From a virus, in the IMG/VR virus record IMGVR_UViG_3300044630_001234: a stretch of 64,000 nucleotides of DNA; one strand, given 5' to 3'. The notes beneath the pieces were generated by a model that worked only from the letters and a program-made list of their open reading frames with translations, searched no databases and had not been told where the DNA came from. A program made the position numbers and the translations under genes. Positions within the stretch are counted from its first letter, which is position 1. Every line of letters begins with the position of its first letter. Below, piece by piece: positions 3,102 to 54,449 of this stretch.

Positions 3102-3174
3102 GTACTATTATACTGGTCAAACCAGTATCTAGTCAATTGGATTTTTTGCCGGTAAATAATACAAAGGACATATT

Positions 3175-18998: not shown

Positions 18999-19084
18999 AG
19001 AACCTCCTAATGTGTATGTCTATGTTATCAGTATATAACAAAACTGGTTTTATTGCAACCGATAATTTTACCAAAAGAAAACCC

Positions 19085-19445: not shown

Positions 19446-19455
19446 TAACTTATAT

Positions 19456-21005: not shown

Positions 21006-21057
21006 TACTGCTTCCTCTTGTTATTATTATACTGGATTTTTACCAGTTTGTCAACCA

Positions 21058-30405: not shown

Positions 30406-30437
30406 AAACTTAATTATAACAACTTTAACTCAGGATG

Positions 30438-30782
30438 TCAAATATTTGGCTTTAATTGTTTGGCATTGCTAGATGCCATGGCCGATACAGCAGGGCTAGC
30501 GCCTACTTCAGCTGGTTGTTCTTTGTCTTGATTGGCTGTTTTGGTCTTTAGTAAGACAGCGCCATTATCTAATATATCGGCAATAACGTCACCGGCTGGG
30601 TCAACTGCATTTTTAAGTGCAATTAATCCATCCGGTGTACTGATACCTAAGCCAAACGGTTTAATCAATTTCATAACAACGGCAAATGGCAAAGTTGAAC
30701 TTTGCCCTGCCCTGTTTGCTTGACCTTGTAGAACTGCTAGAACATCTCTAGCACTGCCTAGGTCTACTTCTAATAATCTCAT
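30438..30782 (-). CDS. hypothetical protein (114 aa)
   Basis: Track ORF. Confidence 0.45.
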   Translation of the reverse strand: MRLLEVDLGSARDVLAVLQGQANRAGQSSTLPFAVVMKLIKPFGLGISTPDGLIALKNAVDPAGDVIADILDNGAVLLKTKTANQDKEQPAEVGASPAVSAMASSNAKQLKPNI

Positions 30783-36477: not shown

Positions 36478-36506
36478 AAAAAAGGACCTTCGGGTCCTTT
36501 TTTTAT
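36478..36506. terminator. bidirectional rho-independent terminator
   Basis: aaaaaGGACCttcgGGTCCttttttt between convergent genes. Confidence 0.6.
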
Positions 36507-36907
36507 AGTGGCTTGCTTTTTAAGTATTCCGGATAGCGTTTGTTAAAGTTACGCATAATAACTCCTGCTATTTCATGTGCTTGATTTTCGTGGGGACTGC
36601 CAGTTTCCCCACTGTCTGCATGTAATTCACCATTCATATTCTGTTTAAAATGCACTAGTTCGTGTGCTACGGTTCTTAGTATATCTACAGGATGACGATT
36701 AGACAATGCCACTGCCAGCATGTTGTCGTCCGGAGAATACATGCCAAAGCTAGGTTGATCGCCTGTATTTAAGTCCGGTGCAAAACGCATCTTAGGAAGA
36801 CTGTCTACTTCTAGCACTTCCATAGCCAATGGCAGAAACTTTTTAAACATTTCTACAACATTGGCATTTTCCTGTGCGCCTTCAACAATAAACTGACTTG
36901 CTCTCAT
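36503..36907 (-). CDS. putative zinc metallopeptidase (HExxH)
   Basis: VAHELVHF plus a downstream ENQAHE. Small (134 aa) minimal-metzincin/SprT-like layout. Confidence 0.5.
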   Translation of the reverse strand: MRASQFIVEGAQENANVVEMFKKFLPLAMEVLEVDSLPKMRFAPDLNTGDQPSFGMYSPDDNMLAVALSNRHPVDILRTVAHELVHFKQNMNGELHADSGETGSPHENQAHEIAGVIMRNFNKRYPEYLKSKPL

Positions 36908-36915: not shown

Positions 36916-39900
36916 TTAGCGTCGGACAAAGTGATAGTCTCCGTCGGGCCCGTTGTTGCTAAAAATACCCTGACAATCAAAACCTTGTTCATCCATATAG
37001 GCAATGACTTCGTCTTTTAACGGGGCGCCTTTATTATACTCTACTACCTGTAGTTCTAAGATAACGTGCTTTACGTCTTTAAGTGTTTCTACAGCACCTT
37101 TTAGTACATCAAGTTCTGCACCCTGTACATCCATTTTAACAAAGTCTGGTTTGGGGAATCTTTTAAGATTTGATACTGCATCAACTGTAACTGTTTTTAA
37201 CTTACGCTTATGCGTGTCGTTGAAATAATTTACAGTATCTGGATTAACTACTTCGTTTTCTTTGTAGTAGCTGTTACCACCCGGGTGAATATCGTTTTGA
37301 TAAAACTCAACTTCTTTGCCGGTTTCATTGCTCAGTACACCTATGTGGTATTTCATTCTGCGTTCTTGATACAAGAACTCTGTACTATCCATTGCTTCAA
37401 AAGCTACTATCTCTGCGTCAGGCCATATGCGAGCAGCTTCGTTAGTCCAATGTAGTACACAGGCTCCAATGTCGTAGATTACTTTAGGTTCAAGACCGGC
37501 TGTTTTTAATCCAGCAAGATAGTCTACATGACTTCTAGGTATCAATCGTTGGCTACCTAGTTCTCGCAGCCTTGTTTGAATGTTAGCTACCGGAGACGTA
37601 TCGATAGCAGGAATGTTATTATCAACATTAAAAGTAAAACTTCCTGTGTGCTGGCATTGTATAGTTGTATCGGCCCAAATCTTAAAACCTTTTTCTAAAG
37701 CCTTACGACAAAAGTCAACATCTTCCGAAACAGTGTCTTTGTGATTGATAGCACTATAATATTTAAACTGTGGATAACCTATGGCCTTGAATACTTCTGA
37801 TTTAACTAATACACAGCCAAACCCGCAGCCTGCAATTTCAACTAGTCCCCTGTCTTTAATTTTACCGTAGGGTATATTAGTAACTCCGCCGCGGTCATTT
37901 TTTTCATATAGTTCGAGTATATGCAGTCCTGGCTTGCGTTGAATATACAGTCCGCTGACAACATCCTTGTCATGTGCTAGAAGTTTTGATAGTGTGTCTT
38001 TAGGGAAAGCAATGTCGCTGTCTACGCTGAATAGATAATCAAATCCATTGACTACCCAATCTGCTATCAAGTTGCGAACTTGATCAATGTTGTAGCCATA
38101 GAAGAATTGAAACGTAGTTTCGTAGCCTTCTGGTACTTCTAAATCATATATGGCCTTGAATGTGTCAGGCTCTATGTTACGGGCTGTAGGGATTCCTATC
38201 AGTATCTTTTTTTTTGAAGCATTCATTTTCTTTACAATTATTTGTGCGTTTTGATTCTGCTCAACAGCGTTAACTTTATAGTCATTGAGCGGATTAATGT
38301 CATTATAGTTATACACGACATCTTGTAGGCATTTAACTTTGTTGGGATCTGCGGCTTCTATCAGAGCGTAGAATACCGATCCATCTCCACCAGCTTTAAA
38401 CCACTCACCTCGTTCATTTTGAAACAAACTGTCTGCAATATCATTGAGCAGATATTTTCTAAATGTACGTAAGTGTGTGTAAGGTAATATCCAATTGAAG
38501 TGATGATTCCTATAATCACGAGCTTGTTTAACATGCTCTGGATAAGGCTGGCTAATCAATGGAATGTTATCAACCATTGACCAGCATGATCCATAGGTAA
38601 ACTCTGTAGTACCGTCATATAAGGCATTATACTGACTGAAGATAGTGTTATCGTTGACAAGACTGTCATCACCATCTAACAGCATAATAATAGAGTTGTT
38701 ATTCATTAGGCTGCGTATGTGTTCAATCTGATTACGCACTGCGCCACGATTTTCTGTGTTAACAGCAATTTTAAATCTATCCTGCACTTCTTTAGGCAGT
38801 GCTGCCACTGTGGCCGTTAACACTTCTACAGTATTGTCAGTAGAACAATCGTCAATTAAAATATGCACATAGTTATCGTAGTCCTGTGCGGCTACACTCT
38901 GTATACACTTGGCAATGTAGTCAGCACAGTTATAGAACGGACTGATAACTACAATAGGTTGTTCGTTGCCTGTTTTATAATTTTCAAGTTCGATAGTGTT
39001 ATGAAACTTGCGATTCCAAATCTTGTGTACTCTACGATTGATCTTAGTCACTGCACGATATTCGCTACGAGACAAATATAAGCCTAACTTCTGAACCATC
39101 AACTGTTTCCACTGTAGGGCCACTGTGTCCCAACCTGCTAGGTCCTTGACAATGTTACAGTAGTATTGTTTTTGTTGATGTAGGTACTTGTTGTGATATG
39201 CTTGTACAGTCATAGCAACAAACTTCTCAACCTGCTCTGGCACATTGATATCAGGAAATAGACCGTTAGGTTCTATAGCATAGTCAATGTGATAGCAAGC
39301 ACCTTCTAATGCAATTTCTTCTAAGGCGCCAAATCTGCAGGTAATAGCAGGTGTGTTATACAGTAGACTCTCTAATGTACTGATACCAAACGTTTCAGGG
39401 AATGCTGCCGGATACAACATGAAGTTTGCTAGAGTAAGTATGTCGGCAATTTCACGTTGTGAAATAACTCCCGTAAACTCTATGCCTAGTTTAGCCAGTT
39501 CAGGATCTGCAGCCATGGCCCGCCAATCTTTTTCTTGTTGATCAGGTTCGCTGCCTGTGCTAAATCTATAATAGCCGCCTATGATCTTTAACTTAGCTGT
39601 AGGGATGTGTCTTTTAACGTGTGGCCAAATATACTTAACCAACGGAATCATGCCCTTGGTCACACTTGCATTGTAGACAAACAAGTTAGGGTCTTTAGCT
39701 TTAATGTCTACTTCTGTTTTAAAGTTTCGAGCACCATTACGTGTGATAAAAAACTTATTCTTTAACACTTCAAAGTTGCGTCTGCGTCCGTGGTGGCAAT
39801 TAGCCACATAGGTTAAGTGGAAGTCGCTGAGTGTAAAGATATCTGTAATGCGATTAGACGTTGCTAGTTCTTCAATTAGATTATCACCGAGACAAAATGT

Positions 39901-40284
39901 ATCGTGCATCCATAGCGCACGAACTCGAGCTTTTGCTATTACTCTATTATACAGATCCATGTTCTGGAAAGGAGTAGATCTTATGTCGTTTAATTTAGGG
40001 TAATCACTAGCGTCTGTAAATGGAATCACGGTACGTGAGCTTACAACAATGTCAAACTCATGATCCAGTGCAAGGTCGGTAAGTGGGCGATATGTGACCA
40101 TATCATAAACACCTGGACGAGCATGATCAATGCCGCAGTTGTTAAACACAGTCACGGTAAATCCAATTTGAGCAAGTTCTCTGCTCATCAGTGTAACAGC
40201 ACTTTCGCTGCCCCCTAAACCTTGTTTGTCTACAGTAGTACCATCATAGGGTATACCGATAATATCAATAATAGCGATCTTCAT
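36916..40284 (-). CDS. multidomain glycosyltransferase/methyltransferase (GT4 - GT2 - second GT-A - FkbM MTase), 1122 aa
   Basis: N-terminal GT4: GGSESAVTLMSREL ... ETFGISTLESLLYNTPAIT. Central GT2: ISPFYNCADYI...HILIDDCSTDNT. Third GT-A-like: ILIGIPTARNIEPD...FSVDSDIAF. C-terminal FkbM: VIYDIGACVLHW ... VKMDVQGAELDVLKGA. Confidence 0.75.
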   Translation of the reverse strand: MKIAIIDIIGIPYDGTTVDKQGLGGSESAVTLMSRELAQIGFTVTVFNNCGIDHARPGVYDMVTYRPLTDLALDHEFDIVVSSRTVIPFTDASDYPKLNDIRSTPFQNMDLYNRVIAKARVRALWMHDTFCLGDNLIEELATSNRITDIFTLSDFHLTYVANCHHGRRRNFEVLKNKFFITRNGARNFKTEVDIKAKDPNLFVYNASVTKGMIPLVKYIWPHVKRHIPTAKLKIIGGYYRFSTGSEPDQQEKDWRAMAADPELAKLGIEFTGVISQREIADILTLANFMLYPAAFPETFGISTLESLLYNTPAITCRFGALEEIALEGACYHIDYAIEPNGLFPDINVPEQVEKFVAMTVQAYHNKYLHQQKQYYCNIVKDLAGWDTVALQWKQLMVQKLGLYLSRSEYRAVTKINRRVHKIWNRKFHNTIELENYKTGNEQPIVVISPFYNCADYIAKCIQSVAAQDYDNYVHILIDDCSTDNTVEVLTATVAALPKEVQDRFKIAVNTENRGAVRNQIEHIRSLMNNNSIIMLLDGDDSLVNDNTIFSQYNALYDGTTEFTYGSCWSMVDNIPLISQPYPEHVKQARDYRNHHFNWILPYTHLRTFRKYLLNDIADSLFQNERGEWFKAGGDGSVFYALIEAADPNKVKCLQDVVYNYNDINPLNDYKVNAVEQNQNAQIIVKKMNASKKKILIGIPTARNIEPDTFKAIYDLEVPEGYETTFQFFYGYNIDQVRNLIADWVVNGFDYLFSVDSDIAFPKDTLSKLLAHDKDVVSGLYIQRKPGLHILELYEKNDRGGVTNIPYGKIKDRGLVEIAGCGFGCVLVKSEVFKAIGYPQFKYYSAINHKDTVSEDVDFCRKALEKGFKIWADTTIQCQHTGSFTFNVDNNIPAIDTSPVANIQTRLRELGSQRLIPRSHVDYLAGLKTAGLEPKVIYDIGACVLHWTNEAARIWPDAEIVAFEAMDSTEFLYQERRMKYHIGVLSNETGKEVEFYQNDIHPGGNSYYKENEVVNPDTVNYFNDTHKRKLKTVTVDAVSNLKRFPKPDFVKMDVQGAELDVLKGAVETLKDVKHVILELQVVEYNKGAPLKDEVIAYMDEQGFDCQGIFSNNGPDGDYHFVRR

Positions 40285-40329
40285 GCTATTAATTATACAC
40301 TCTTTATCTGGATAGTCAAAGATATTGGA

Positions 40330-43300
40330 TTAGAACCAATATGCTGATAGTACAGTTGCACCGTCTGTACCGGTTCCTGCTACAAAAAAGTTTTCTGAAC
40401 CTATTAAACTATTGGTAATAGATCTAGAACCTGCTGTAGCAGCACTTAAATTCTGGAAAGCAAATATCTTTAATTGAACAGCATCATTGGTTATAGTATC
40501 AACTGTTACTATTTGATCGACTCTATCAATACCGATGCTTTCTGGATAAGGCATTCTATTAGTATATACGTGTGATCCTTCTCTATTGTATGAGGATCCA
40601 CCAATTGTTGAACTCTTAACAGTTGCAGTTGCTACTGCAATTACAGCAGTAACTGCACCGGCGTTTGTAGCTGGAAATGCTCGACCGCTGCCCCAGATAA
40701 TACGCACGGCACCGACACCGCCCCAACCACCACCGTAGCTGGTACCAGATCCGCCGCCACCGCCACCAAATGCACCACCGTTAATGATACGTAGACCGCT
40801 TTGTCCCGAACCTTCGCCACCACGGCCTTGTTCGCCACCTGAACCACCGCCGCCGCCGAAATAACTAGAACTTCCAACACCATCCGCGCCTTTTCCAAAT
40901 ATGCCAACACCGCCGCCTGCAGGTACACCATATGTACTTGAATAATAACCAGATGCTGCACCAGCGCCTGATCCTGCTGGTGGATTGTAGGCCGTAAAAT
41001 AACCTCCGGCATTATCAGCACCCTGGCCGGCATATCCGCCTGCGCCAGCGCCGCCCCTATTCCAAGATCCTTCAAATGCTCCATTACCGCCACGTCCACC
41101 GCCATCTCCTAAGAAGCCGCCGCCGTAGCCGCCACCGAATGAGGTAGCACCAGGGCCGCCGCGTCCACCACCATAACCTGCTACTGTAGCAGTTGAGATA
41201 AAGTAACTGGTACCGCCTAGGTTCGTTGATAGGTTACTTGCGTTGCTAGTTGATTCACCACCTTGACCAACTACAACAGTATATGATACTCCGGGAGTAA
41301 CTGGAATGTTATTCTTCCAACCTAGGCCACCACCACCACCGCCACCAGAACTCCAAACATGGCCACCACCGCCTCCGCCGCCTACGGCTACAACACTTAC
41401 TGATGTAACTCCGCTTGGTGCTGTCCACGAATATGTACCTGTAGTAACATAAGTCGCATCACCCGCTGTTGGATAGGATCCAGTGCCACCTGTTGGAACC
41501 ACTCCGCTGATTACACCTAACTTAGGAGTTGATGTTCCTGTAGAATAGCAGGTAATTTGATTAATGCTGCCAATAGCCGACACAACAACAGTATTTCCAT
41601 CGCCGCCATTACCGCCTGATACACTAGAGGTTGTGATAGTTACTATTGATCCGGCAGTATAGTTACTAGTACCTTTAAGGCCAATAACTGTAAATGACCA
41701 AGATGCAGTTGTTATAGTCGATATAGAACTAATTGTAGGATCTAACTCAAGTTCACCAGTTGAGTAAATTGAATTAATCGCTCCTGGAGTAGGAGCTACG
41801 CTACCATATGCTAAACAGCTAATACTATAACTGCTGGTATTAACCACAGTAATATATACAATATTTCCTTGCCCAAGATTACCAACTCTAGCCTGTGCAG
41901 AAAGAATATCTTTAGTAGCAAATCCAACTGTTGAACTCAGTCCTGTTATATCAAATATCCAAGGACCCGAACCTATTACAGTTCCAATGGTACCTACTGC
42001 GCCTGAATCTACACCTATCGAGATCGATGCGCTAAATGTTGCTCTAGTAGTGGTTGTAATAATCTTTGCATTATCAGCAGTTCTAACATAATTGCCAAGG
42101 TGTCCAGCAGCGTTGACTGATACAGTAGCCGCTTGCTGGCCGCCGTACAAGAATCCTTGATATTCAGGAATAACCCATCTAGACTTACCATAGGCTACTG
42201 TAGTATCTCTGGTATAACTACCTACAGGTTCTGTTGCCTGATTACCAATTAGATTTCCTTCGGCGTATGGACTATTAGCTGTAATAGTAACTATCATCGA
42301 GTCATTACCATTATCACTAGGCAGAGCACTAAATCTTTGTCTAATAACCGGAGTTTCAGATGCATTTGCACCTGCAATTAATACAGATGCTGCTGGTCCT
42401 GATCTAGCACCGAAGCCGGTATAGATTGTACTAGTTGATATTGGTGCGTAATTAATAATTGGTAATGCAACTCCGGTTGAATAATCTGTCCCTAGCCATT
42501 CAGATTTCTTAATTCTAATATTACTAAAGCCGCCAAAGGTACTGTTTACAGAATAAAAACTACTATCGAAGTAAACTGTCTGACCTGTTCCTTTAAACAC
42601 TGAATAGAGTAACTTGCTACCGTTATAATGTTTAATGTAACCATCGGTGGTATAAACAATGTAAAACTTATTAGCTGGATTCCAAGATCCACCTTGGTCA
42701 CCTAAATTTGAACCGTTATGATGAATATTGAAATTGTTAGACTGGTACGGATATGCAGCCCAGTCTATGGTATCATAACTTGCATTAGCAGTTGGGTCAG
42801 CGTTCCAACCTATCATGGCATAGCTAGCACCGTTATCTGTGGCTGCTGCTTGCTTATAGAATTCCATGGTAACAGGTGCTGTAAATCCCGTTGAAATATA
42901 TGCTTGATTATCCCAGTTAATTGATCCTGAAGTTTTAAAAACAGTTACGTCAGTGGTTCCGTTATTTGTTACTGTTAAGTTCCCGGACGCAACTAACGTT
43001 ATTGTTTCGTAGGGAACAGTTACAGTCGAGAAGGACATTACTGCACCAGTTGTAGATACAGTTCCTATTCTACCAGAAGTTGCAGTAGCAGTTGATAAAC
43101 AAGTGATCTGTTCGCTGTTAAGCACCGACGTTACATACACTGTAGCTGTGCCTAGACTACCTACCATGTTAGTAGCAGTGATAATTGACCCATATATAAA
43201 TGCATTAGTGGATGTTAGGCCGGATATAGTAAATGTATATGGTGCTATTGTAGTTATAGGTGTAAATGGATTTATCACTGATACTACAGCAGAGGTCTGT

Positions 43301-46300
43301 GTTATCGTATTATTGTAAGACGAATTATCAATAAACGATGTACTTTGGCAAGTTAATAAAACTGTGTATGTACCTGTTGAAATAGGTGCAATATTTGTAC
43401 CACTGATTTGTGTTGTAGCCAAAGTAGATGTGGTAGGTGTAAAATTACCGGTGTAAACTGCCAGGCCTTTTACCAGTCTAAAATTAGATAGGTAGCCGTT
43501 AAAATATTCTGAATATCCTCTGGCGTTACCAATTAAAAATGGCTCTGTATTATCTGCACCCATTGAAATAGCCACTGAATACACCAATGAACCGTTTACA
43601 TATATGTTTAATGTAGAACCAGTGTAGACCCATGCACAGTGACTCCATACTCCTGCAGTTAATGTATAGCTTGAATTGTATTCAGTTCCATTATAAAAAC
43701 TGATAACACCTGTGCTGATTCTTAAAAAACCCTCATACGATGTAGTGCCAGAACTAGTAACACGTTTACAAAAGATAGCACGATATGCAGAGTAATCACC
43801 GTCTGGTCTAATCCAGCACTCTGCTGTCCATGCTAGGTTGTTTAAATTAAAATTAGTAGAGTGAGCAATCTGTAGGAAACTAGTTGATCCATTAAAACTG
43901 ACACTGTAGGAACTAGTATTAGTTAGAGTCGATACGCCAGTTACTGGTCCGATATAATTTCCGATGTCTGGACCGGCGGAATAAATTCCAACAATAGTAC
44001 CAGTGGTCGGTGCTAAGGTTCCATTTTGAGCTATACAGGTTATGGACGTACTACTATTAACCTCAGTTACTATTACAGTGTTACCACCGAAACTTCCACC
44101 TAATGGTGTTGATCGTACAATAGTACCTGTGGTAAATTGTGCAGTTGACCTTAGTTGTTGAATGGTCAGTGTCCAAGGATTTGTTCCGGATACTGAAGTA
44201 ATTAATCCTGGGGTGGTATCTGATGTTACTGATAAGATGTTGGTCAACGTGCCAACATTATAATCTCTAATAGTAGCACTAGATACTGAAACTACACTTA
44301 CAAACGCTGATTGCACTCCGAAGTATTTGTTTTCTAATGGAGTTGGTATTGTTACACCAGAAGATGACCCACTTGCAATTCCAGCTGTGTATATTTCTAA
44401 GATTTGAGCGGCTGTTAATTCACCGCTTATAACTTGTATTGCATCTAAGGCAGTCGGAGCTTCAGTACCTGCATACGGGTAACCGTTGCCTATGTAACTT
44501 GTTCCAGGATAACTTGAGTTAACAGCTATGTTAGTTAGTTCCTTAACTCCGTTAACGTATGCATCCACCTGATAATTTGATTTAACTACCCAAGCTAGGC
44601 AGAACCAATTATTTGTGTTTACTAAAGTTGTTCCAACGTTTTGTGTTGCATTGGCTACACAAATTTTTCCTGAGCTAATTCCCAGACCCCAGTATATGCT
44701 GTTTGCAGGATCACTGAAAATAGGCACACTAGGAGAATATGATCCGCCGCTGGCAGTTTGAGTTCCTTTGTACCATGCTACATAAGTCTTACTCCAATTA
44801 CTGGCCACTGTGGTTAATTCGTTGATTCTTAGATAATTACTGGCCATGTTCCAACCAGTAGCGTGTCCGGTATTTTGAACACCGCCTGTAGTAGGGAATG
44901 TTAAACTACCGGTTGTAGTCAATGAATAGGAGCCTGATATAGTAATTGCACCACCGTTGAATTGAATACCTAATAATTTCGTAGCACCAGGCGGAGTTAA
45001 AAGTTCATTTCCGAGTGAAACACCACTGTAACTAGAACCGGTATACGCCTGTACTGTACCGGCCCATACTAGACGTACAAATCCGTTACCACCGGAGCTG
45101 GCTAGGCCAGTTCCACCATCCCAAGAACCACCACCACCACCGCCAGGAAATCCACCTTCTCCACCCCGCGATCCTGCTGAAGATAATCCGTTGCCTGCAC
45201 CGCCGTTAGTGCTAGAAACTATAGGAGTATAGGTAGCAGATCCACCACCACCGCCACCTGTTACGTTATTTTGTCCAGCACCGCCAGCACCACCACTATA
45301 TCCACTATTAGAACCTCCTGTGCCTGCTGAGAAACTTGCGGCACCGCCACCACCAGCGCCAGCGCCCCCATTAAACCCAGATTGATATAAAGTACCGCTA
45401 GGACTGTATGAAGTACTACCGTTTCCGCCCGCACCTCCCAAACCACCTGCGCCGCCACCACCACCACCTCCGTCCCAACCAGCGCCGCCTGGGCCACCGG
45501 CGTAACCCCCAGTGGTTACCCCGCCTGGAGTATTAGCAAAACTAGGAGCAGCAGGTGCCGGAGCACCTGGATTAGTGCTGTAAGGCGTACCACCGATACC
45601 ACCGGGGACAGTCATAGTGAATGAGCCAAACGCAACTGAGCTCAATCCACCATCTGGTGCTTTTGTATTTTTTGTCGCAGTGGCTATTCCGCCTAATCCA
45701 ACAACTATGGTAAGAGTTTGACCCGGAGTCACTGATAGGTTATTGAAGAATCCAGCCGATCCACCAGAGCCACCACCGCCACCACCGTCACCGCTGTTTC
45801 CGTCATCACCTGCGCCACCTGCGCCAACTGCCATTACTGATAATGTAGTTGCATTTGAAGGAACAATGAATGTATATGTTCCAGGCGCAGTATAATTTTG
45901 ATCAGTTTCTACTGGCACTGGTGGCGTATATGTTCCGCCGGGGACACTGATAGAGTCGATCAATCCCGCAGTTGGAGCAAGGCTGCCGATTCCACCATAG
46001 GCTACAGCAATAATGCTAGTAGGGCTAGTAACTGTAGATACAGTTACCGTACTTCCTACGCCAAAACTTCCAAGTTTACCCGAACTGGTTGTTGCTGTTA
46101 TTATCGAAGTAGCTGTTAACGAAGATACAGTACTAGATGAAATATTGTAAATTCTAAAGATCCAAGAAGAACTTGTAATTGGAGTAACTCTGTAAACAAA
46201 GGTTCCTGTTGTGCTAGGATTAATTTCGGAATTGACTTGAGTTGATATACTAGTGCTAGTTGATGAAGTTGTATAAAATTTAGTAAATGCTAGAGTACCA

Positions 46301-49300
46301 GTGTTGAATAATCTAGCAGGCGAGTATCCGTAGGTTTCTGATGGTACATTGACTCTGAGAAAATACCCAGTTTGTAGTATACTCTTTCTTTCTAAGGTTA
46401 ATCTTCTGGTGTCATAGACCACGCTACCCGTAATGTTAGGAACGTGATTTTGCTGGAATAATTTTGGAGAATTTTTAATACTCGGAGATCTAAGATCATA
46501 AGACGGGCCGCCAACTGTTGAACTCTTAGTAAATGGAGTTACAACGGCTGCAACAGCACCAGTTATTTCAGTAACATTACTAGTTGGGAATGCTCTACCT
46601 GTACCCCAAATAATACGTACAGCTCCTTGGCCGCCCCACCCACCACCATAGCTGGTACCAGAGCCACCGCCACCGCCACCGTATTTTCCGCCATTGATTG
46701 TCTTAAAACCGCTTTGTCCCGAACCTTCGCCACCACGGCCTTGTTCGCCACCCGAACCACCAAATCCACCATAGAATTGTCCGCTAGCGCCACCACTCGA
46801 TCCTTGACCATATATACCTACACCGCCGCCTGCTGGTACGCCATATGTACTTGAATACCAGCCACCTGTACCGCCGCCGCCGCCTGCAGGAGCGGCATTA
46901 CCACTGCTACTACCACCATATGAGTCTGCGCCACGGCCTGTATATCCTCCAGCACCAGCTCCACCGTAATTCCATGATCCGTCAAAGGCACCATTACCAC
47001 CTCGTCCACCACCATCACCTTGATAGCCACCACCATAGCCACCACCAAACGAAGTAGCATTGGGGCCACCGCGCCCTCCGCCGTATCCTGCTACTGTAGC
47101 AGTTGAGATAAAGTAACTGGTACCACCTAGGTTTGTGCTATTGTTATTTGCATTAGCAGTCGATTCGCCACCTGATCCTACTACAACGGTATAGGTCTGA
47201 CCAGGTGTAACTGAGATGTTGTTTTTCCATCCCAAACCACCGCCACCACCGCCACCTGAACTCCAAGTGCTGCCGCCACCACCACCGCCACCTACTGCTA
47301 CAACACTCACTGATGTAACTCCTGCTGGAGCGACCCATGAATATGTACCTGTGGTAATATAAGTTGCATCGCCAGGCTGTGCCGGTAATGAACCTGTAAG
47401 CCCTGTTAGATACGGTCCAACTATTGTTCCTGCAATTGGAGTAGTTGTTCCCGTAACATAACAGATAATTTGTGTATTGTTAAGAATAGATTTAACTAGT
47501 ACTGTATTTCCTAGACCAAAACTACCTGTTACTGATGTAGCGGTAACTACAGCAGCCACAGATAGATAGCCAGTGCCCTTAATACCTATTACATTAAATT
47601 CCCACGATGTTGTTGATGTAGCTGTAACTGAAGTAATTGTAGTGTCAGGTATAATTTCGCCAGTGGCGTATATCGCATTAAGTATTCCAGTAGTAGGAGC
47701 TACAGATCCGCCAAATGCAGAAACTGTAATCGATGAAGTTCCAGTATTGGTAACATATACAACATTTCCTGTACCTAGTGTAGCAGATCTCTCAACTACA
47801 GAAATTACAGATTTAGAAGGTAATTCAAGACTTGACGACATTCCAGTAATTGTAAATGTCCAGGGTCCGACTAATGGTGTTCTAAACGTTGGTAATGATG
47901 TACCGGCTGACGCAGAAAATGTAAATGTTACTCCTGTAGCAGTGAAAGTGTGTATAGTATAAGTACCGGCTGTGGTTACAGTTCCGCCCTGACATCTCTG
48001 TGAGCCAGGATATCTAACAATAACAATACCACTGCCGCCAGAGCCTGATCCACTAGACCAACCACCGTTCGCAGCCCAGTAACTTCCACCACCACCGCCG
48101 CCCCCTGTGCCTGCAATAGCGTTAGGTGTTCCGCTACCTGTAGTAGTAGCATTAACTTCGTTGGTATATACGTTATAATTGTAGTAGGTTGTAGTACCAG
48201 CACCGCGTCCGCCGCCTGCAAATCCATCACCTGCTCGTTCACTACTGTTACCACCGCCACCGCCCCCGCCTGCATACCATCGCCATGTGCCAGAGATATC
48301 AAATGCTTTACCAGCGCCACCATTACCGCCTGGTGCTGAACCTGATCCATTTACACCTGCACCACCAGCTCCACCACCACCAGCTCCTGTCCATGTATAG
48401 CCAGTTGTACCACCAGCATTACCATAGGCGGCCGCGCCATTTACACTAGTTTGAGTAGCTGAACCACCACCGTTTTGATAAGCGGAACCTCCGCCTGAAC
48501 CACCGTTCATTTTGCCGCCGTCAAACCCCTGTCCAGTACTTCCGCCGCCACCGCCACCTTGTGCAATATAAGTTCCAAAAGAAGAGTTTCCGCCCTTGTT
48601 GCCGTTGGCGTTTGTTGAGTTAGCAATAGCAACACCACCTGCGCCTACTATAACATCATATGCACTAGATAATGTTACACCAGTAGCATAAAGAACTCCG
48701 CCGCCGCCACCGCCACCGTTACCGTTTGTGGTATTATTGTTACCACCCGATCCGCCACCCGCAACAACTAAAATATCGGCAACAATAGACTGTACAGGGG
48801 GAGGAGTATAAGTGCCACCTGTAGGTGTAATACCGAGAATTGATCCATTGGTGGGAGCAACAGTGGCTGTATTAGCCACTGCAATAATACTGGTACTATT
48901 AGTCACAGTATAAACATAGACTGTGCCGTCACCAAAACTTCCAAAACTGCTTGAATTTGTATTGGCAGAGATTATTGTGCCAAACGTTAGGCCAGATGTC
49001 TGTGTTGAGGATAGTTGCTCAATGGCAAATGCATAAGTTGCTGTGGTTATCAGTTCCACTCCGTAGATATTGGCATTAAGATATACTGGATTAGTAACAG
49101 TATTAATAATTCCAACTCCTGCACCATCACGATTAACAGGAATACTGATTGAATTAGTGCCTGTTGTGAATAACTTTGTCGAAGTTGAATATCCGTAGAC
49201 CGTCGACGGAGTTTGGATACGTTGATAATTAAACGAATTGTTTAATGTAATTATCGTAGCTGAAGTTAATAGGCGTGTAGTTGGATATGCAATGACCAGT

Positions 49301-49485
49301 GGAGTAATAAAACTATTATAGTTTACGCCATCCACTGGTCTATTGCCAAACTCGTAGGCACGCCCATTGGGATAGTATTGTCTGGCATACTCCCCTCTTA
49401 CATTGTACTGAGCAATTACAGTAACCGAAGCTCCAACAACTGTGGTGTTGAAGTTCTTTTTAGATCCGTCAATTACTTGCGGCAT
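40330..49485 (-). CDS. giant glycine-rich structural (fibre/fibril) protein, 3051 aa, with a LamG/ConA-like lectin domain and an internal tandem duplication
   Basis: Single uninterrupted ORF. Poly-Gly tracts (GGGGGGGS...). LamG-like segment (ECWIRPDG...VWSHCAWVYTGSTLNIYVNGSLV...GNARGYSEYFNGYLSNFRLV). Two ~560-aa near-identical blocks (...TGTYSWVAPAGVTSVSVVAVGGGGGGG... / ...TGTYSWTAPSGVTSVSVVAVGGGGGGG...). Confidence 0.7.
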   Translation of the reverse strand: MPQVIDGSKKNFNTTVVGASVTVIAQYNVRGEYARQYYPNGRAYEFGNRPVDGVNYNSFITPLVIAYPTTRLLTSATIITLNNSFNYQRIQTPSTVYGYSTSTKLFTTGTNSISIPVNRDGAGVGIINTVTNPVYLNANIYGVELITTATYAFAIEQLSSTQTSGLTFGTIISANTNSSSFGSFGDGTVYVYTVTNSTSIIAVANTATVAPTNGSILGITPTGGTYTPPPVQSIVADILVVAGGGSGGNNNTTNGNGGGGGGGVLYATGVTLSSAYDVIVGAGGVAIANSTNANGNKGGNSSFGTYIAQGGGGGGSTGQGFDGGKMNGGSGGGSAYQNGGGSATQTSVNGAAAYGNAGGTTGYTWTGAGGGGAGGAGVNGSGSAPGGNGGAGKAFDISGTWRWYAGGGGGGGNSSERAGDGFAGGGRGAGTTTYYNYNVYTNEVNATTTGSGTPNAIAGTGGGGGGGSYWAANGGWSSGSGSGGSGIVIVRYPGSQRCQGGTVTTAGTYTIHTFTATGVTFTFSASAGTSLPTFRTPLVGPWTFTITGMSSSLELPSKSVISVVERSATLGTGNVVYVTNTGTSSITVSAFGGSVAPTTGILNAIYATGEIIPDTTITSVTATSTTSWEFNVIGIKGTGYLSVAAVVTATSVTGSFGLGNTVLVKSILNNTQIICYVTGTTTPIAGTIVGPYLTGLTGSLPAQPGDATYITTGTYSWVAPAGVTSVSVVAVGGGGGGGSTWSSGGGGGGGLGWKNNISVTPGQTYTVVVGSGGESTANANNNSTNLGGTSYFISTATVAGYGGGRGGPNATSFGGGYGGGYQGDGGGRGGNGAFDGSWNYGGAGAGGYTGRGADSYGGSSSGNAAPAGGGGGTGGWYSSTYGVPAGGGVGIYGQGSSGGASGQFYGGFGGSGGEQGRGGEGSGQSGFKTINGGKYGGGGGGSGTSYGGGWGGQGAVRIIWGTGRAFPTSNVTEITGAVAAVVTPFTKSSTVGGPSYDLRSPSIKNSPKLFQQNHVPNITGSVVYDTRRLTLERKSILQTGYFLRVNVPSETYGYSPARLFNTGTLAFTKFYTTSSTSTSISTQVNSEINPSTTGTFVYRVTPITSSSWIFRIYNISSSTVSSLTATSIITATTSSGKLGSFGVGSTVTVSTVTSPTSIIAVAYGGIGSLAPTAGLIDSISVPGGTYTPPVPVETDQNYTAPGTYTFIVPSNATTLSVMAVGAGGAGDDGNSGDGGGGGGSGGSAGFFNNLSVTPGQTLTIVVGLGGIATATKNTKAPDGGLSSVAFGSFTMTVPGGIGGTPYSTNPGAPAPAAPSFANTPGGVTTGGYAGGPGGAGWDGGGGGGGAGGLGGAGGNGSTSYSPSGTLYQSGFNGGAGAGGGGAASFSAGTGGSNSGYSGGAGGAGQNNVTGGGGGGSATYTPIVSSTNGGAGNGLSSAGSRGGEGGFPGGGGGGSWDGGTGLASSGGNGFVRLVWAGTVQAYTGSSYSGVSLGNELLTPPGATKLLGIQFNGGAITISGSYSLTTTGSLTFPTTGGVQNTGHATGWNMASNYLRINELTTVASNWSKTYVAWYKGTQTASGGSYSPSVPIFSDPANSIYWGLGISSGKICVANATQNVGTTLVNTNNWFCLAWVVKSNYQVDAYVNGVKELTNIAVNSSYPGTSYIGNGYPYAGTEAPTALDAIQVISGELTAAQILEIYTAGIASGSSSGVTIPTPLENKYFGVQSAFVSVVSVSSATIRDYNVGTLTNILSVTSDTTPGLITSVSGTNPWTLTIQQLRSTAQFTTGTIVRSTPLGGSFGGNTVIVTEVNSSTSITCIAQNGTLAPTTGTIVGIYSAGPDIGNYIGPVTGVSTLTNTSSYSVSFNGSTSFLQIAHSTNFNLNNLAWTAECWIRPDGDYSAYRAIFCKRVTSSGTTSYEGFLRISTGVISFYNGTEYNSSYTLTAGVWSHCAWVYTGSTLNIYVNGSLVYSVAISMGADNTEPFLIGNARGYSEYFNGYLSNFRLVKGLAVYTGNFTPTTSTLATTQISGTNIAPISTGTYTVLLTCQSTSFIDNSSYNNTITQTSAVVSVINPFTPITTIAPYTFTISGLTSTNAFIYGSIITATNMVGSLGTATVYVTSVLNSEQITCLSTATATSGRIGTVSTTGAVMSFSTVTVPYETITLVASGNLTVTNNGTTDVTVFKTSGSINWDNQAYISTGFTAPVTMEFYKQAAATDNGASYAMIGWNADPTANASYDTIDWAAYPYQSNNFNIHHNGSNLGDQGGSWNPANKFYIVYTTDGYIKHYNGSKLLYSVFKGTGQTVYFDSSFYSVNSTFGGFSNIRIKKSEWLGTDYSTGVALPIINYAPISTSTIYTGFGARSGPAASVLIAGANASETPVIRQRFSALPSDNGNDSMIVTITANSPYAEGNLIGNQATEPVGSYTRDTTVAYGKSRWVIPEYQGFLYGGQQAATVSVNAAGHLGNYVRTADNAKIITTTTRATFSASISIGVDSGAVGTIGTVIGSGPWIFDITGLSSTVGFATKDILSAQARVGNLGQGNIVYITVVNTSSYSISCLAYGSVAPTPGAINSIYSTGELELDPTISSISTITTASWSFTVIGLKGTSNYTAGSIVTITTSSVSGGNGGDGNTVVVSAIGSINQITCYSTGTSTPKLGVISGVVPTGGTGSYPTAGDATYVTTGTYSWTAPSGVTSVSVVAVGGGGGGGHVWSSGGGGGGGLGWKNNIPVTPGVSYTVVVGQGGESTSNASNLSTNLGGTSYFISTATVAGYGGGRGGPGATSFGGGYGGGFLGDGGGRGGNGAFEGSWNRGGAGAGGYAGQGADNAGGYFTAYNPPAGSGAGAASGYYSSTYGVPAGGGVGIFGKGADGVGSSSYFGGGGGSGGEQGRGGEGSGQSGLRIINGGAFGGGGGGSGTSYGGGWGGVGAVRIIWGSGRAFPATNAGAVTAVIAVATATVKSSTIGGSSYNREGSHVYTNRMPYPESIGIDRVDQIVTVDTITNDAVQLKIFAFQNLSAATAGSRSITNSLIGSENFFVAGTGTDGATVLSAYWF
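40605..42285. repeat. intragenic tandem-duplication copy 2 (approx.)
   Basis: Protein-level and shadow-ORF similarity to 46530-48210 (offset ~5.93 kb). Confidence 0.5.
46530..48210. repeat. intragenic tandem-duplication copy 1 (approx.)
   Basis: See copy 2. Minus-strand shadow ORFs 46563..47069 and 40641..41105 share ...VVQVANKAVVAKVRDKAV.... Confidence 0.5.
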
Positions 49486-54400: not shown

Positions 54401-54449
54401 CACCATAAACCTTTTTTACCTTGCCGGTTAAGAGTCTACTGTTACTCAT
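51405..54449 (-). CDS. fibre protein with seven ~50-aa tandem repeats, a collagen-like Gly-X-Y segment and a C-terminal beta domain (1014 aa)
   Basis: Repeats of T(T/N)TNATSTTTGALQVxGGVGIGGNLYVGGTAYLNNAEVLTTSS. Collagen stretch GYTGSQGGPGYTGSRGAAGFTGSQGEIGFTGSQGPEG...GEKGDPGDGG. Confidence 0.7.
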   Translation of the reverse strand: MSNSRLLTGKVKKVYGDRLTVDRYNNLSLSQAEPDLGPPSVDGSILIGSTSSNVRTWSEMVTVSTAGVVTIFSTASDRFSYNTNALRIQGGAVVAGNLHVGGTAYLNGAEILTTQSGLSSVLGSSIINQTLQVNTNTNATSTATGALQVQGGVGIGGALFVGGLANTGTSFVVYYNTTTGQLSYDTSIGEGGGSPFAEIFTITNTTTAISTLTGALQVAGGVGIQGNLYVGGTAYLNDAEVLTTSSRITSVEGLTQVTQDFVVNTTTNATSTTTGALQVVGGVGIGLDVRIGQNLYVAGTAYLNNAEVLTTSSGLSSTLGQTEISQTLFVNTTTNSTSTTTGAITTPGGVGIGQDVNIGGRISILSTLSSTSTLVDNSLYVAGGVGINGSLYVDGPAYFQNNVIFAGTSTYIYSTNTVYTDNLVNVHVPLGSTGTEHSWTIDDGKDIGFVYHYYKGQDKNAFLGLDNSSGYLEWYSNGEEVGGIFTGTEYGLFKTGAAILASTTASASTTTGALVVAGGAGIGGNLYVGGSLVVGGSSVITSNDLLTVTYPAAYITNDPSEFAGLPTLAGTDTAYGSYNFGTVLDIRTFNDYNTATNSGFYSINDAVTSPGYIVYVGFTGITEFNRVVLNINYTQSSDHTINIDLYNYVTSAWNTFAVYSGLPGWYQLALGVIDSDPYVSGGAVTLRLNHIDGGNISYRTWIDYIALEMSKQGGQGPRGATGPIGLTGTAGLTTSTTSTFLFLNVTTATSTVSAAVVAYGGMGIGGGLYVRGDINYTGNIYQNGQVVGARGYDGSQGEIGYTGSQGGPGYTGSRGAAGFTGSQGEIGFTGSQGPEGTAGTGGATGATGFTGSIGYTGSKGDMGYTGPIGYTGSAGTNGANGAQGFTGSKGEKGDPGDGGAGGATVLERHYRKPGVLTVNPGTEKWYVPVNSTITSMKARVEVAPVGSQGVDVRVNINSNSTATLTINTSTTVSALNTSTININANDYITVDVINIGNINAGSDLTVTFTYTRNI

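What the first reader, a model, noticed from the sequence alone, without database searches (positions are those of the whole stretch)
36916..40284. 1122-aa four-module enzyme (GT4-GT2-GT-A-FkbM methyltransferase) abutting the collagen-like and glycine-rich fibre genes
One polypeptide combines three glycosyltransferase modules of different folds or families with a C-terminal FkbM SAM-methyltransferase. A second free-standing FkbM MTase (13202-14248) and a GT2 (4886-5602) are also present. It lies directly next to giant fibre genes containing collagen Gly-X-Y repeats and Thr/Ser-rich tracts, which are the classical acceptors for viral self-glycosylation (mimivirus fibrils, chlorovirus capsid glycans). 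A phage building methylated-sugar glycans on collagen-like virion fibres with its own multi-GT enzyme would be largely undescribed.
Basis: partly seen in the sequence, partly recalled or inferred. Interest (0 to 1): 0.7.

Follow-up and report, generated by a model that had tools for sequence, protein, structure and literature searches.

The report
Four-module glycan-building enzyme beside phage fibres
An uncultured large freshwater-type tailed phage encodes one 1122-residue protein that joins three intact sugar-adding enzymes to a methyl-adding enzyme, and it always sits beside giant collagen-like or glycine-rich tail-fibre genes, so it most likely sugar-coats the virus particle, though no experiment shows this yet.

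Summary
ORF 36916-40284 (-) encodes 1122 aa with four modules:
- M1: GT4-type GT-B, aa 1-434.
- M2: GT2 GT-A, aa 439-686.
- M3: an STIV-A197-like GT-A, aa 690-894.
- M4: an FkbM methyltransferase, aa 900-1122.

All catalytic motifs are invariant across the family alignments. The protein has no membrane segment.

The family is absent from GenBank phages as a whole protein. It is common in metagenomes: more than 120 full-length clusters, at least 360 IMG/VR contigs and 367 representative clusters. M1 signature peptides were not found in 185,579 bacterial and archaeal species genomes. Modules are duplicated, inserted or lost exactly at the junctions, and their order never changes.

In three different gene arrangements the gene stays next to giant Gly/Ser/Thr-rich or collagen-like fibre genes with (G-[Y/F]-T-G-S-x)n repeats. 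It has its own conserved sigma70-type promoter.

Best reading (about 0.5): a cytoplasmic assembly line that builds a short, methyl-capped glycan on virion (fibre) proteins. This is analogous to chlorovirus A064R and to mycobacteriophage virion glycosylation. The acceptor is inferred, not shown. Host-envelope glycan and DNA glycosylation remain rivals.

Novelty: a new variant of a known kind.

The parts
36916..40284 (-). Complete ORF of the four-module enzyme (1122 aa plus stop)
   Evidence: ORF list and translation. Full-length homologues at 95-67% identity in more than 120 clusters. AF2 model with mean pLDDT 81.6.
38983..40284 (-). Module 1 (aa 1-434): GT4-type GT-B glycosyltransferase. Contains G24-G-S-E27 and the E297-x7-E305 motif.
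38227..38970 (-). Module 2 (aa 439-686): GT2 GT-A glycosyltransferase. Contains D479 and the D537-G-D-D540 (DxD) motif.
   Evidence: Pfam Glycos_transf_2 at 75.7 bits. PDB phmmer hits to GalT1, TarS-like, K4CP and PmHS2. Motifs are invariant.
37603..38217 (-). Module 3 (aa 690-894): A197-like GT-A glycosyltransferase. Contains V754-D-S-D757, C820-G-F-G-C824 and S853-E-D855.
36919..37587 (-). Module 4 (aa 900-1122): FkbM-family SAM-dependent methyltransferase. Contains D938-x-G940 and D1052-x-Q-G-x-E1057.
   Evidence: Pfam Methyltransf_21 at 60.5 bits. TIGR01444 at 60.9 bits against a 37.7 cut-off. 42% identity and TM 0.94 to the Moumouvirus Monve FkbM protein H2EDQ1. pLDDT is about 90 or higher.
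40292..40319 (-). Sigma70-type promoter with an extended -10 (TTGACT-N16-TGTATAAT). It ends 7 nt before the ATG, in the 45-nt gap after the fibre gene.
   Evidence: 11 of 12 match to consensus. The pattern TTGAC-N16-19-TATAAT occurs 9 times in the window, all on the coding strand, against 0.42 expected. The motif TTGAC..TGTATAATTAATAGCAT(AT)ATG is conserved upstream of the gene in 13 related loci with different upstream genes.
40330..49485 (-). Adjacent 3051-aa glycine-rich/LamG fibre protein and candidate acceptor. It has a Ser/Thr-rich tract at aa 1062-1159.
   Evidence: Pfam Gly_rich_2 (105 bits) and Laminin_G_3 (75 bits). PHROG tail-fibre families. Composition G 19%, S+T 24%.
51405..54449 (-). 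1014-aa collagen-repeat tail-fibre protein (46 G-X-Y triplets).
   Evidence: Pfam Collagen at 54 bits. PHROG tail-fibre families. Triplet count.
54787..57939 (-). 1050-aa tail-fibre protein with an Mtd_N N-terminal domain.
   Evidence: Pfam Mtd_N. PHROG tail fibre and baseplate families. About 30% identity to cyanomyovirus tail fibres.
57966..63893 (-). 1975-aa collagen-like fibre protein and prime candidate acceptor. It has 401 G-X-Y triplets in a (G-[Y/F]-T-G-S-x)n pattern.
   Evidence: Pfam Collagen at 512 bits over 18 stretches, plus He_PIG. Ser fills 137 of 401 X positions and Thr fills 111 of 401 Y positions.
36503..36907 (-). 134-aa ORF starting 8 nt downstream of the enzyme gene, probably co-transcribed. 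Function unknown.
   Evidence: ORF list. A 134-aa ORF holds the same position in L001, L002, L006 and L007. Only weak PHROG hits.
13202..14248 (-). Free-standing FkbM methyltransferase (348 aa) with its own sigma70-type promoter at 14296-14325. It could add a second methyl group.
   Evidence: Pfam Methyltransf_21 at 70 bits. Promoter. Only distantly related to module 4.
4886..5602 (-). Free-standing GT2 glycosyltransferase (238 aa).
   Evidence: Pfam Glycos_transf_2 at 68 bits. 28% identity to module 2 over 112 aa.

Best explanation
The gene encodes a soluble, cytoplasmic 'assembly-line' transferase of an uncultured large tailed phage. Three catalytically intact glycosyltransferase modules use host nucleotide-sugars to add sugars one after another: M1 is a retaining-type GT4 GT-B, M2 a GT2 GT-A and M3 an A197-like GT-A. 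The C-terminal FkbM module then O-methylates the glycan, probably its terminal sugar, acting as a cap. The most likely acceptors are Ser/Thr hydroxyls of virion proteins made in the same cell, above all the giant collagen-like (G-[Y/F]-T-G-S-x)n and glycine-rich fibres encoded next to it. The result would be glycosylated fibres. The enzyme is transcribed from its own sigma70-type promoter, so it can be present in catalytic amounts before or independently of the fibre proteins.

Shown here: the architecture, the intact motifs, solubility, virus-restricted distribution, modular evolution, linkage to fibre genes and the promoter.

Inferred: the order of action, the donors, the methyl cap, and the identity of the acceptor.
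For: 1. Four modules are verified and their catalytic residues are invariant in the 121- and 38-sequence alignments.
2. There is no hydrophobic segment. The highest Kyte-Doolittle 19-residue mean is 1.49.
3. Linkage to fibre genes. In about 38 of 42 related loci with flanks (50-93% identity), large Gly/Ser/Thr-rich or collagen-like ORFs lie within a few kb. Three arrangements occur:
   - directly downstream of the fibre gene, as in the window, L003 and L006;
   - divergent, about 100 nt from a 2310-aa or 1964-aa collagen-like ORF (L053, L065);
   - a plus-strand gene embedded among minus-strand Ser/Thr-rich giant ORFs (L057).
4. The fibres in the window and in relatives carry Ser at 30-43% of X positions and Thr at 20-46% of Y positions of the G-X-Y triplets.
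5. Module-3-type GT genes sit one small ORF after, or directly after, the major capsid gene in three unrelated small phages. In cyanophage S-SCSM2R one lies about 2 kb upstream of the baseplate and giant structural genes.
6. Module gain and loss happen at the junctions, and the order stays colinear: M1-M1-M2-M3-M4(-M4), or an extra GT2-like module between M2 and M3. This is what is expected for glycan-structure diversification.
7. Module 4 is 42% identical to a giant-virus (Moumouvirus) FkbM protein.
8. Functional precedents exist. PBCV-1 A064R is GT+GT+MTase with a separate MTase A061L, and it builds capsid-protein glycans (PMC9614988). WsaE is 2 GT + MTase, and its MTase makes a 2-O-methyl cap that terminates the chain (PMC2943079). 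Mycobacteriophage virions are glycosylated (cited).
Against: - There is no direct evidence for any glycan on any virion protein.
- The M2-M3 tandem aligns with the polysaccharide polymerases PmHS2 and K4CP. That would fit a free or lipid-linked polymer equally well.
- The gene carries the same sigma70-type promoter class as non-structural genes such as the exonuclease and the free-standing MTase. It sits at the border between the fibre block and the non-structural block. Part of the synteny in close relatives may therefore be simple conserved gene order.
- The window encodes no sugar-nucleotide pathway that would point to a dedicated glycan.
Confidence: 0.5

Rival explanations
1. Host-envelope glycan remodelling. 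The enzyme extends and methyl-caps a lipid-linked glycan (O-antigen, capsule or EPS) at the cytoplasmic face of the host membrane, like ABC-transporter-dependent O-antigen or S-layer-glycan enzymes. This would change the infected cell surface, for example to exclude superinfection or prevent adsorption of progeny to debris.
For: - M1 is closest to lipid- or sugar-acceptor GT4s: WlaC/PglH, PglJ-type, PimA, WaaG and WbnH.
- The M2-M3 tandem resembles the capsule polymerases K4CP and PmHS2.
- A multi-GT enzyme with a chain-terminating methyltransferase is the logic of WsaE and of the E. coli O8/O9 systems (PMC2943079).
- The sigma70-type promoter suggests expression with non-structural genes.
- Large cyanophages carry many GT genes that authors interpret as cell-surface modifiers (PMC12801897).
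Against: - No initiating phosphoglycosyl transferase, flippase, Wzm/Wzt or ligase was found in the window or in flanks of relatives.
- M1 signature peptides were absent from 185,579 bacterial and archaeal species genomes, so the family is not a recently captured host O-antigen gene.
- Persistent linkage to fibre genes through rearrangements is not expected for a host-surface function.
- Module-3 relatives lie inside the structural operons of small lytic-type phages.
Confidence: 0.2
2. DNA hypermodification. The modules build a methylated oligosaccharide on hydroxylated or hydroxymethylated pyrimidines of phage DNA, to evade restriction.
For: - Multi-sugar DNA glycans made by several phage GTs are known (Pyle 2024, cited; PMC13326640).
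- The promoter is of the early or non-structural type, and RNR and exonuclease genes lie downstream.
Against: - The window and the +/-10 kb flanks of relatives contain no dCMP/dUMP hydroxymethylase, hydroxylase, thymidylate-synthase-like gene, DNA-base kinase or dedicated NDP-sugar pathway. Described DNA-glycosylation genes cluster with such genes (PMC13326640).
- From general knowledge of the family, FkbM-type O-methylation of a DNA-linked sugar has no precedent.
- The conserved neighbours are fibre genes.
- The similarity to DNA GTs is no better than to dozens of unrelated GT4s.
Confidence: 0.1
3. Synthesis of a free or otherwise anchored polysaccharide or small glycoconjugate that is unrelated to the virion. 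Examples are a cytoplasmic methylated polysaccharide, a storage or osmolyte glycan, or a decoy.
For: - The tandem GT-A pair resembles the processive bifunctional polymerases PmHS2 and K4CP.
- No acceptor-recognition domain is evident beyond the four catalytic modules.
Against: - No rationale or precedent is known in tailed phages.
- It does not explain the persistent linkage to fibre genes.
- It does not explain the structural-operon position of module-3 relatives.
Confidence: 0.1

Closest known systems
Chlorovirus PBCV-1 A064R (638 aa; beta-L-rhamnosyltransferase, alpha-L-rhamnosyltransferase and 2-O-methyltransferase) with the separate methyltransferase A061L
   Same: - A virus-encoded, soluble, single polypeptide that strings glycosyltransferase domains in front of a C-terminal SAM methyltransferase.
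- Its domain order equals the reaction order, and it finishes a virion-protein glycan with a methylated terminal sugar.
- A second, free-standing methyltransferase is encoded elsewhere in the genome, as here at 13202-14248 (PMC9614988).
   Different: - It belongs to a eukaryotic giant virus, not a tailed phage.
- It has two GT domains (a GT-A and a novel fold) rather than GT-B + GT-A + GT-A.
- Its acceptor is an N-linked capsid glycan.
- No sequence relationship was demonstrated here. A064R was not among the top 50 BFVD structural hits.
Mycobacteriophage virion glycosylation (Freeman et al. 2023, Cell Host Microbe; cited in PMC12619734)
   Same: Tailed-phage-encoded glycosyltransferases that O-glycosylate the phage's own structural proteins in the host cytoplasm.
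   Different: - There the enzymes are separate small GT genes, and the acceptors are the C-termini of the capsid and tail-tube subunits.
- Here there is a four-module fusion with a methyltransferase, in a proteobacteria-like promoter context, linked to collagen-like and glycine-rich fibres.
- Homology was not tested because the paper is not held in the library.
Geobacillus stearothermophilus WsaE (methyltransferase plus two rhamnosyltransferase domains) and the E. coli O8/O9 chain-terminating methylation
   Same: A soluble trifunctional enzyme in which GT domains build repeats and the methyltransferase domain adds a 2-O-methyl cap that terminates elongation (PMC2943079).
   Different: - It is bacterial and works on a lipid-linked glycan that is exported by Wzm/Wzt and then transferred to an S-layer protein by an oligosaccharyltransferase.
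- Its MTase is N-terminal.
- None of those partner genes is seen here.
Bifunctional tandem GT-A polymerases (E. coli K4 chondroitin polymerase K4CP; Pasteurella heparosan synthase PmHS2) and human collagen galactosyltransferase COLGALT1
   Same: The M2-M3 pair aligns as a unit with these two-GT-A-domain enzymes. Foldseek E values are 5e-15 for PmHS2, 7e-12 for K4CP and 1e-9 for COLGALT1.
   Different: - Sequence identity is only 12-15% and the global TM-score is low, which reflects uncertain inter-domain geometry.
- M3 belongs to the small A197-like GT-A type, not GT2 or GT25.
- There is no evidence of processivity.
STIV A197 (Sulfolobus turreted icosahedral virus glycosyltransferase, PDB 2c0n)
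   Different: - A197 is a stand-alone 197-aa archaeal-virus protein.
- The biochemical target of A197 was not examined here.
Collagen-like spore glycoproteins BclA/BclA3 with the adjacent glycosyltransferase SgtA (Bacillus, Clostridioides difficile)
   Same: Proline-poor prokaryotic collagen-like G-X-T repeats are glycosylated by a GT encoded next to the collagen-like gene (PMC7157674 abstract).
   Different: - It is a bacterial spore surface system, not a virus.
- No homology was tested.
- The acceptors here are unproven.

Membership tests
GT4-type GT-B glycosyltransferase (module 1) | Two-Rossmann-domain GT-B fold | tested here: met
GT4-type GT-B glycosyltransferase (module 1) | Pfam Glycos_transf_1 match above the gathering score | tested here: met
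   32.3 bits against 26.4. Glyco_trans_1_4 scores 32.3 against 27.
GT4-type GT-B glycosyltransferase (module 1) | E-x7-E motif in the C-terminal Rossmann domain | tested here: met
   E297-TFGISTL-E305 is the only EX7E in the protein. Both Glu residues are invariant in 38 sequences.
GT4-type GT-B glycosyltransferase (module 1) | Retaining stereochemistry and donor identity | not testable with these tools
   Needs an enzyme assay.
GT2 GT-A glycosyltransferase (module 2) | Pfam Glycos_transf_2 above the gathering score, plus a DxD motif | tested here: met
   75.7 bits against 23.3. D537-G-D539-D540 and D479 are invariant.
A197-like minimal GT-A (module 3) | GT-A fold superposable on STIV A197, with a DxD motif | tested here: met
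A197-like minimal GT-A (module 3) | Membership of a curated Pfam or CAZy family | tested here: not met
   No Pfam family is above threshold. Anp1 (GT62) scores 23.5 bits against a 28.8 cut-off. Only phrog_1574, 'unknown function', matches.
FkbM-family methyltransferase (module 4) | PF05050 and TIGR01444 above their cut-offs | tested here: met
   60.5 bits against 22.7. 60.9 bits against 37.7.
FkbM-family methyltransferase (module 4) | Class-I SAM-binding motif (D-x-G-A...) | tested here: met
   In Y937-D-I-G-A-C942, D938 and G940 are invariant. The module has a Rossmann-like fold with pLDDT of about 90 or higher.
FkbM-family methyltransferase (module 4) | O-methylation of a sugar hydroxyl | not testable with these tools
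   Inferred from the fusion to three GTs and from the A064R and WsaE precedents.
Virus-encoded virion-glycan synthase (A064R-like, functional class) | Several transferase domains plus a methyltransferase in one soluble viral polypeptide | tested here: met
Virus-encoded virion-glycan synthase (A064R-like, functional class) | The glycan product is attached to a virion protein | not testable with these tools
   Only genomic linkage to fibre genes and the structural-operon position of M3 relatives are available.
Virus-encoded virion-glycan synthase (A064R-like, functional class) | Sequence or structural homology to A064R itself | tested here: inconclusive
   A064R is not among the 50 best BFVD matches. 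The list is dominated by other giant-virus and phage GT/FkbM proteins. No direct comparison was possible.
Phage DNA-glycosylation system | Co-localisation with pyrimidine hydroxymethylase or hydroxylase genes and nucleotide-sugar genes | tested here: not met
   None was found among the window ORFs scanned or in the flanks of relatives. Only 64 kb of a genome of at least 240 kb was seen.
ABC-transporter-dependent O-antigen / S-layer glycan pathway | Presence of an initiating phosphoglycosyl transferase, Wzm/Wzt and a ligase or oligosaccharyltransferase | tested here: not met
   Not found in the window or flanks (the same calls). Host-encoded partners cannot be excluded.

The most novel reading that the evidence does not exclude
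A widespread lineage of uncultured large (about 240-380 kb) aquatic tailed phages coats its giant collagen-like tail or whisker fibres with virus-made, methyl-capped O-glycans. The glycans are built directly on the Ser/Thr of (G-Y-T-G-S-x)n triple helices by a single evolvable four- to six-module enzyme. This would be the bacteriophage counterpart of giant-virus fibril glycosylation, with modules (for example the FkbM domain, 42% identical to a Moumouvirus protein) shared between the two virus realms. Module shuffling would diversify the glycan.
Probability: 0.35. Interest if true: 0.75.

Novelty: new variant of a known kind. Interest (0 to 1): 0.58.

Why it matters
Self-glycosylation of virions by virus-encoded enzymes is established for giant algal and amoebal viruses. 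For tailed phages it has only recently been shown, in mycobacteriophages. If this enzyme glycosylates fibres, three things would follow:

1. Phage virion glycosylation would extend to abundant environmental large phages with probably Gram-negative-type hosts.
2. It would give a compact, soluble, modular four-activity enzyme for glyco-engineering of collagen-like proteins.
3. It would offer a natural system in which module gain and loss can be related to glycan structure and to host-range or defence evasion. More than 350 viral contigs already carry 3-, 4-, 5- and 6-module versions.

It would also connect phage and giant-virus glycosylation toolkits. Even if the target turns out to be host LPS or DNA, a conserved virus-restricted GT-B/GT-A/GT-A/FkbM fusion is an uncharacterised enzyme family worth assaying.

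Tried and rejected
- DNA-level search of GenBank phages found no match. tblastn found only module 3. No cultured relative is available.
- 'Moraphage' identity (PMC12619734) was considered and not adopted. Those phages are predicted to infect Bacteroidota, whereas this window uses TTGAC-N17-TATAAT promoters. The paper mentions only generic GT orthogroups.
- Degenerate-domain hypothesis: rejected, because all motifs are invariant.
- Membrane-bound synthase: rejected, because there is no TM segment.
- Recent duplication between the fusion modules and the free-standing FkbM or GT2: rejected, because they are only remotely similar.
- Recent capture from a bacterial O-antigen cluster: no support. 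The genome-contig scan gave only two generic GT2 hits. Caveat: the patterns used were module-1 peptides.
- T4-type late promoter TATAAATA: not enriched, 5 found against 6.9 expected. The transcription class of the fibre block could not be defined.
- Using fold to decide the acceptor: uninformative. M1 is about equally similar to lipid-, sugar-, protein- and DNA-directed GT-B enzymes.
- The afdb50 fold library was unavailable. The Freeman 2023 paper is not held.
- Sugar-nucleotide biosynthesis genes: none found among about 45 window ORFs scanned. A class II aldolase (24424-25059) is the only sugar-phosphate-type enzyme, and it has no clear link.

Full report
OBSERVATION. The ORF at 36916-40284 (minus strand, ATG start, 1122 aa) is present exactly as described.
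- Pfam finds Glycos_transf_1 (aa 202-329, 32.3 bits against a 26.4 cut-off), Glycos_transf_2 (aa 446-615, 75.7 bits) and Methyltransf_21/FkbM (aa 938-1103, 60.5 bits). NCBIfam TIGR01444 (fkbM_fam) scores 60.9 against 37.7.
- The third module (aa ~690-894) has no Pfam match above threshold; Anp1/GT62 reaches only 23.5 of 28.8 bits. It matches phrog_1574 (1.6e-27, 'unknown function') and two PHROG glycosyltransferase families.
They are only remotely related to modules 4 and 2.

ANATOMY. An AlphaFold2 model built on a 38-sequence alignment has mean pLDDT 81.6. Its low-confidence linkers lie at aa 435-438 and 895-899, with a dip near 681-690. These give M1 = 1-434, M2 = 439-686, M3 = 690-894 and M4 = 900-1122.
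- Foldseek aligns the M2-M3 tandem as one unit with the two-GT-A-domain enzymes PmHS2 (5e-15), K4CP (7e-12) and COLGALT1 (1e-9).
- The expected catalytic residues are all present and invariant in the family: G24-G-S-E27 and E297-x7-E305 in M1; D479 and D537-G-D-D540 in M2; D755-S-D757, C820GFGC and S853-E-D855 in M3; D938-x-G940 and D1052-x-Q-G-x-E1057 in M4.
- No 19-residue window reaches transmembrane hydrophobicity (maximum 1.49), and the N-terminus is the first beta-strand of a Rossmann fold. The protein is therefore soluble and cytoplasmic.

DISTRIBUTION AND MODULARITY.
- GenBank phages have no DNA-level match, and only module 3 has protein-level matches.
- The 5.8-billion-protein collection holds more than 120 clusters with the full architecture at 95-67% identity, on contigs up to 383 kb.
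- An exhaustive search of 50%-identity representatives finds 367 clusters with E below 1e-30. These include stand-alone M1, M3 and M4, M1-M2, M3-M4 and M1-M2-M3 proteins.
- IMG/VR holds at least 360 contigs with a relative.
- Module-1 signature peptides were not found in any true relative among 185,579 bacterial and archaeal species genomes.
- UniProt/BFVD already contains a 57%-identical 1119-aa 'uncultured Caudovirales phage' protein, which is uncharacterised.
- Longer variants carry whole-module insertions exactly at the junctions: about 240 aa (a further GT2-like module) at residues 686-689; about 446 aa (a second GT-B) at 433-436; about 215 aa (a second FkbM) at 893-903.
- Among the fetched loci the architectures are M1-M2-M3-M4 (70), M1-M2-M3 (9, some truncated by contig ends), M1-M1-M2-M3-M4 (6) and M1-M1-M2-M3-M4-M4 (2). 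The order is always colinear.

CONTEXT. The window belongs to a large tailed phage.
- It carries RNR subunits, a PD-(D/E)XK exonuclease and PstS, and its fibre proteins match PHROG tail-fibre and baseplate families.
- The fibres resemble cyanomyovirus tail fibres at about 30% identity. Other genes resemble those of 160-360 kb phages of proteobacteria.
- Upstream of the enzyme gene, and co-directional with it, lies a fibre block:
  - a 3051-aa Gly_rich_2/LamG protein (40330-49485), ending 45 nt before the enzyme's ATG;
  - a 575-aa protein;
  - a 1014-aa collagen-repeat protein;
  - a 1050-aa Mtd_N fibre;
  - a 1975-aa collagen-like protein with 401 G-X-Y triplets in a (G-[Y/F]-T-G-S-x)n pattern, with Ser at 137 X positions and Thr at 111 Y positions.
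- 'Abutting' is therefore accurate for the glycine-rich gene only. The collagen-like genes are 11 and 17.7 kb away.

SYNTENY TEST. In 42 related loci with usable flanks (50-93% identity), about 38 have large Gly/Ser/Thr-rich or collagen-like ORFs within a few kb. Three arrangements occur:
- the enzyme gene directly downstream of a fibre gene that varies between loci (1147, 1526, 1650-1730 or more than 3300 aa);
- the enzyme gene divergent from, and about 100 nt away from, a 2310-aa (521 triplets) or 1964-aa (454 triplets) collagen-like ORF (L053, L065);
- the enzyme gene alone on one strand among opposite-strand Ser/Thr-rich giant ORFs (L057).

The collagen-like proteins of relatives keep the same Ser(X)/Thr(Y)-rich hexads. 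As independent evidence, module-3-type GT genes lie one small ORF after, or directly after, the major capsid gene in three unrelated small phages (MW202711, MW202496, Microcystis phage Mel-JY34). In cyanophage S-SCSM2R one lies about 2 kb upstream of the baseplate and giant structural genes.

A QUALIFICATION.
- The 45-nt gap upstream of the gene holds TTGACT-N16-TGTATAAT, which ends 7 nt before the ATG.
- The pattern TTGAC-N16-19-TATAAT occurs nine times in the window against 0.42 expected. All nine are on the coding strand and all lie within 2.7-40.3 kb. They include sites upstream of the exonuclease and of the free-standing FkbM gene, and none lies inside the fibre block.
- The motif, including the sequence down to the ATG, is conserved in 13 relatives whose upstream genes differ.
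- The enzyme therefore heads its own sigma70-type transcription unit at the border of the fibre block. This fits an enzyme needed in catalytic amounts, and PBCV-1 GTs are also early genes (PMC9614988). It also means adjacency in close relatives is weaker evidence than operon membership would be.
- A T4-type late motif is not enriched.

MECHANISM (inferred). M1, M2 and M3 add sugars from host NDP-sugar pools in sequence. The window encodes no sugar-nucleotide genes. M4 O-methylates the product, plausibly as a terminal cap. The free-standing FkbM enzyme may add a second methyl group, as A061L does after A064R-D3 in PBCV-1. The acceptor is most likely Ser/Thr of virion fibre proteins. I put this at about 0.5.

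RIVALS.
- Host-envelope glycan remodelling (0.2) is favoured by M1's closest folds, by the polymerase-like tandem GT-A and by the WsaE and O8/O9 methyl-cap logic. Against it: no initiating, export or ligation genes were seen, the family is virus-restricted, and the fibre linkage persists.
- DNA hypermodification (0.1) is suggested by similarity to the HY126, T4 alpha-GT and T4 beta-GT folds. That similarity is no better than to many other GT-B enzymes. No hydroxymethylase or hydroxylase genes accompany the gene, unlike the described clusters (PMC13326640).
- A free polysaccharide or small glycoconjugate (0.1) is not excluded.

COMPARISON AND NOVELTY.
- Functionally the closest characterised system is chlorovirus A064R (GT+GT+MTase) with A061L. 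Architecturally, WsaE and the tandem-GT-A polymerases are comparable.
- Within phages, the precedent is mycobacteriophage virion glycosylation by separate GT genes.
- A four- to six-module GT-B/GT-A/GT-A/FkbM fusion in tailed phages, linked to collagen-like fibres, was not found in the literature searched.
- Module 4 is 42% identical (TM 0.94) to a Moumouvirus FkbM protein, which hints at exchange with giant viruses.
- I rate it a new variant of a known kind. It is real and well supported as an enzyme, but its target is unproven.

LIMITS.
- Only 64 kb of a genome of at least 240 kb was seen.
- The genome-contig scan used module-1 peptides only.
- Inter-domain geometry in the model is uncertain (pTM 0.56).
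- Fold similarity cannot assign the acceptor.
- The host is unknown.

Noticed in passing
window 19049-19475 (-) and 14545-15777 (-): The phage encodes a permuted (two-piece) tmRNA with tag peptide ANDSHFALAA (ARAGORN; Rfam RF04321 at 19140-19444, 111 bits against a gathering score of 47). A ClpX-like unfoldase (zf-C4_ClpX + AAA_2) lies about 3 kb away. The phage therefore carries both an ssrA-tagging RNA and a homologue of the unfoldase that recognises ssrA tags.
   Followed up: partly
window 2705-2733, 3107-3136, 10313-10341, 13165-13193, 14296-14325, 21026-21054, 27554-27582, 30413-30441, 40292-40319 (all -): Nine TTGAC-N16-19-TATAAT sites occur, all on the coding strand, against 0.42 expected. 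This looks like a sigma70-type promoter class that covers the non-structural part of the window and is absent from the 40.3-64 kb fibre block. It argues against a Bacteroidota host.
   Followed up: partly
L092 5863-6492, L094 2367-3011, L095 4767-5462: Stand-alone module-3-type (A197-like, phrog_1574) GT-A genes sit directly after, or one small ORF after, the major capsid protein gene in three unrelated phages of about 39-44 kb (two Manatee Spring phages and Microcystis phage Mel-JY34). This suggests capsid or tail glycosylation may be common in small aquatic phages.
   Followed up: partly
window 27876-29642 (-): A 588-aa pectate-lyase-like beta-helix protein (Pect-lyase_RHGA_epim, 39.7 bits) lies between the exonuclease and the RNR genes. 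It is conserved at the same place in relatives (643-670 aa in L001 and L006). It could be a tailspike or depolymerase encoded away from the fibre block.
   Followed up: no
window 54787-57939 (-); L003 643-2892: The fibre proteins carry an Mtd_N (major tropism determinant N-terminal) domain. No reverse transcriptase or template repeat was looked for, so a diversity-generating retroelement link is untested. The same 1050-aa protein also gives a marginal Pfam 'Phycobilisome' hit (29.9 bits, no stretch passing on its own), which is probably spurious.
   Followed up: no
window 36503-36907 (-): A 134-aa ORF starts 8 nt after the enzyme's stop codon and is conserved in that position in close relatives (L001, L002, L006, L007). 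More distant relatives (L003) have a 323-aa ORF there instead. It has only weak PHROG hits, including a metallo-protease family at E 2.5e-4. It could be a partner of the enzyme.
   Followed up: no
L008 6247-11658 and 11655-12338; L009: The six-module version (1803 aa: GT-B, GT-B, GT2, GT-A, FkbM, FkbM) is followed by an overlapping 227-aa gene with a faint Glyco_transf_25 signal. In that lineage the glycan toolkit is therefore expanded further.
   Followed up: partly
window 7281-8327 (-), 3638-4477 (-), 1873-2733 (-), 5624-6511 (-), 24424-25059 (-), 10785-11315 (-), 8402-9799 (-): Auxiliary genes seen: a PstS-like phosphate-binding protein, an SPFH/Band-7 protein, two calcineurin-like phosphoesterases, a class II aldolase, an Rv2179c-like 3'-5' exoribonuclease, and a DUF2828/DUF7788 protein (phrog_850, 'RNA-binding') that is shared at about 48-50% identity with phages of 160-360 kb (Ralstonia RSP15, Serratia BF, Erwinia phages).
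   Followed up: no
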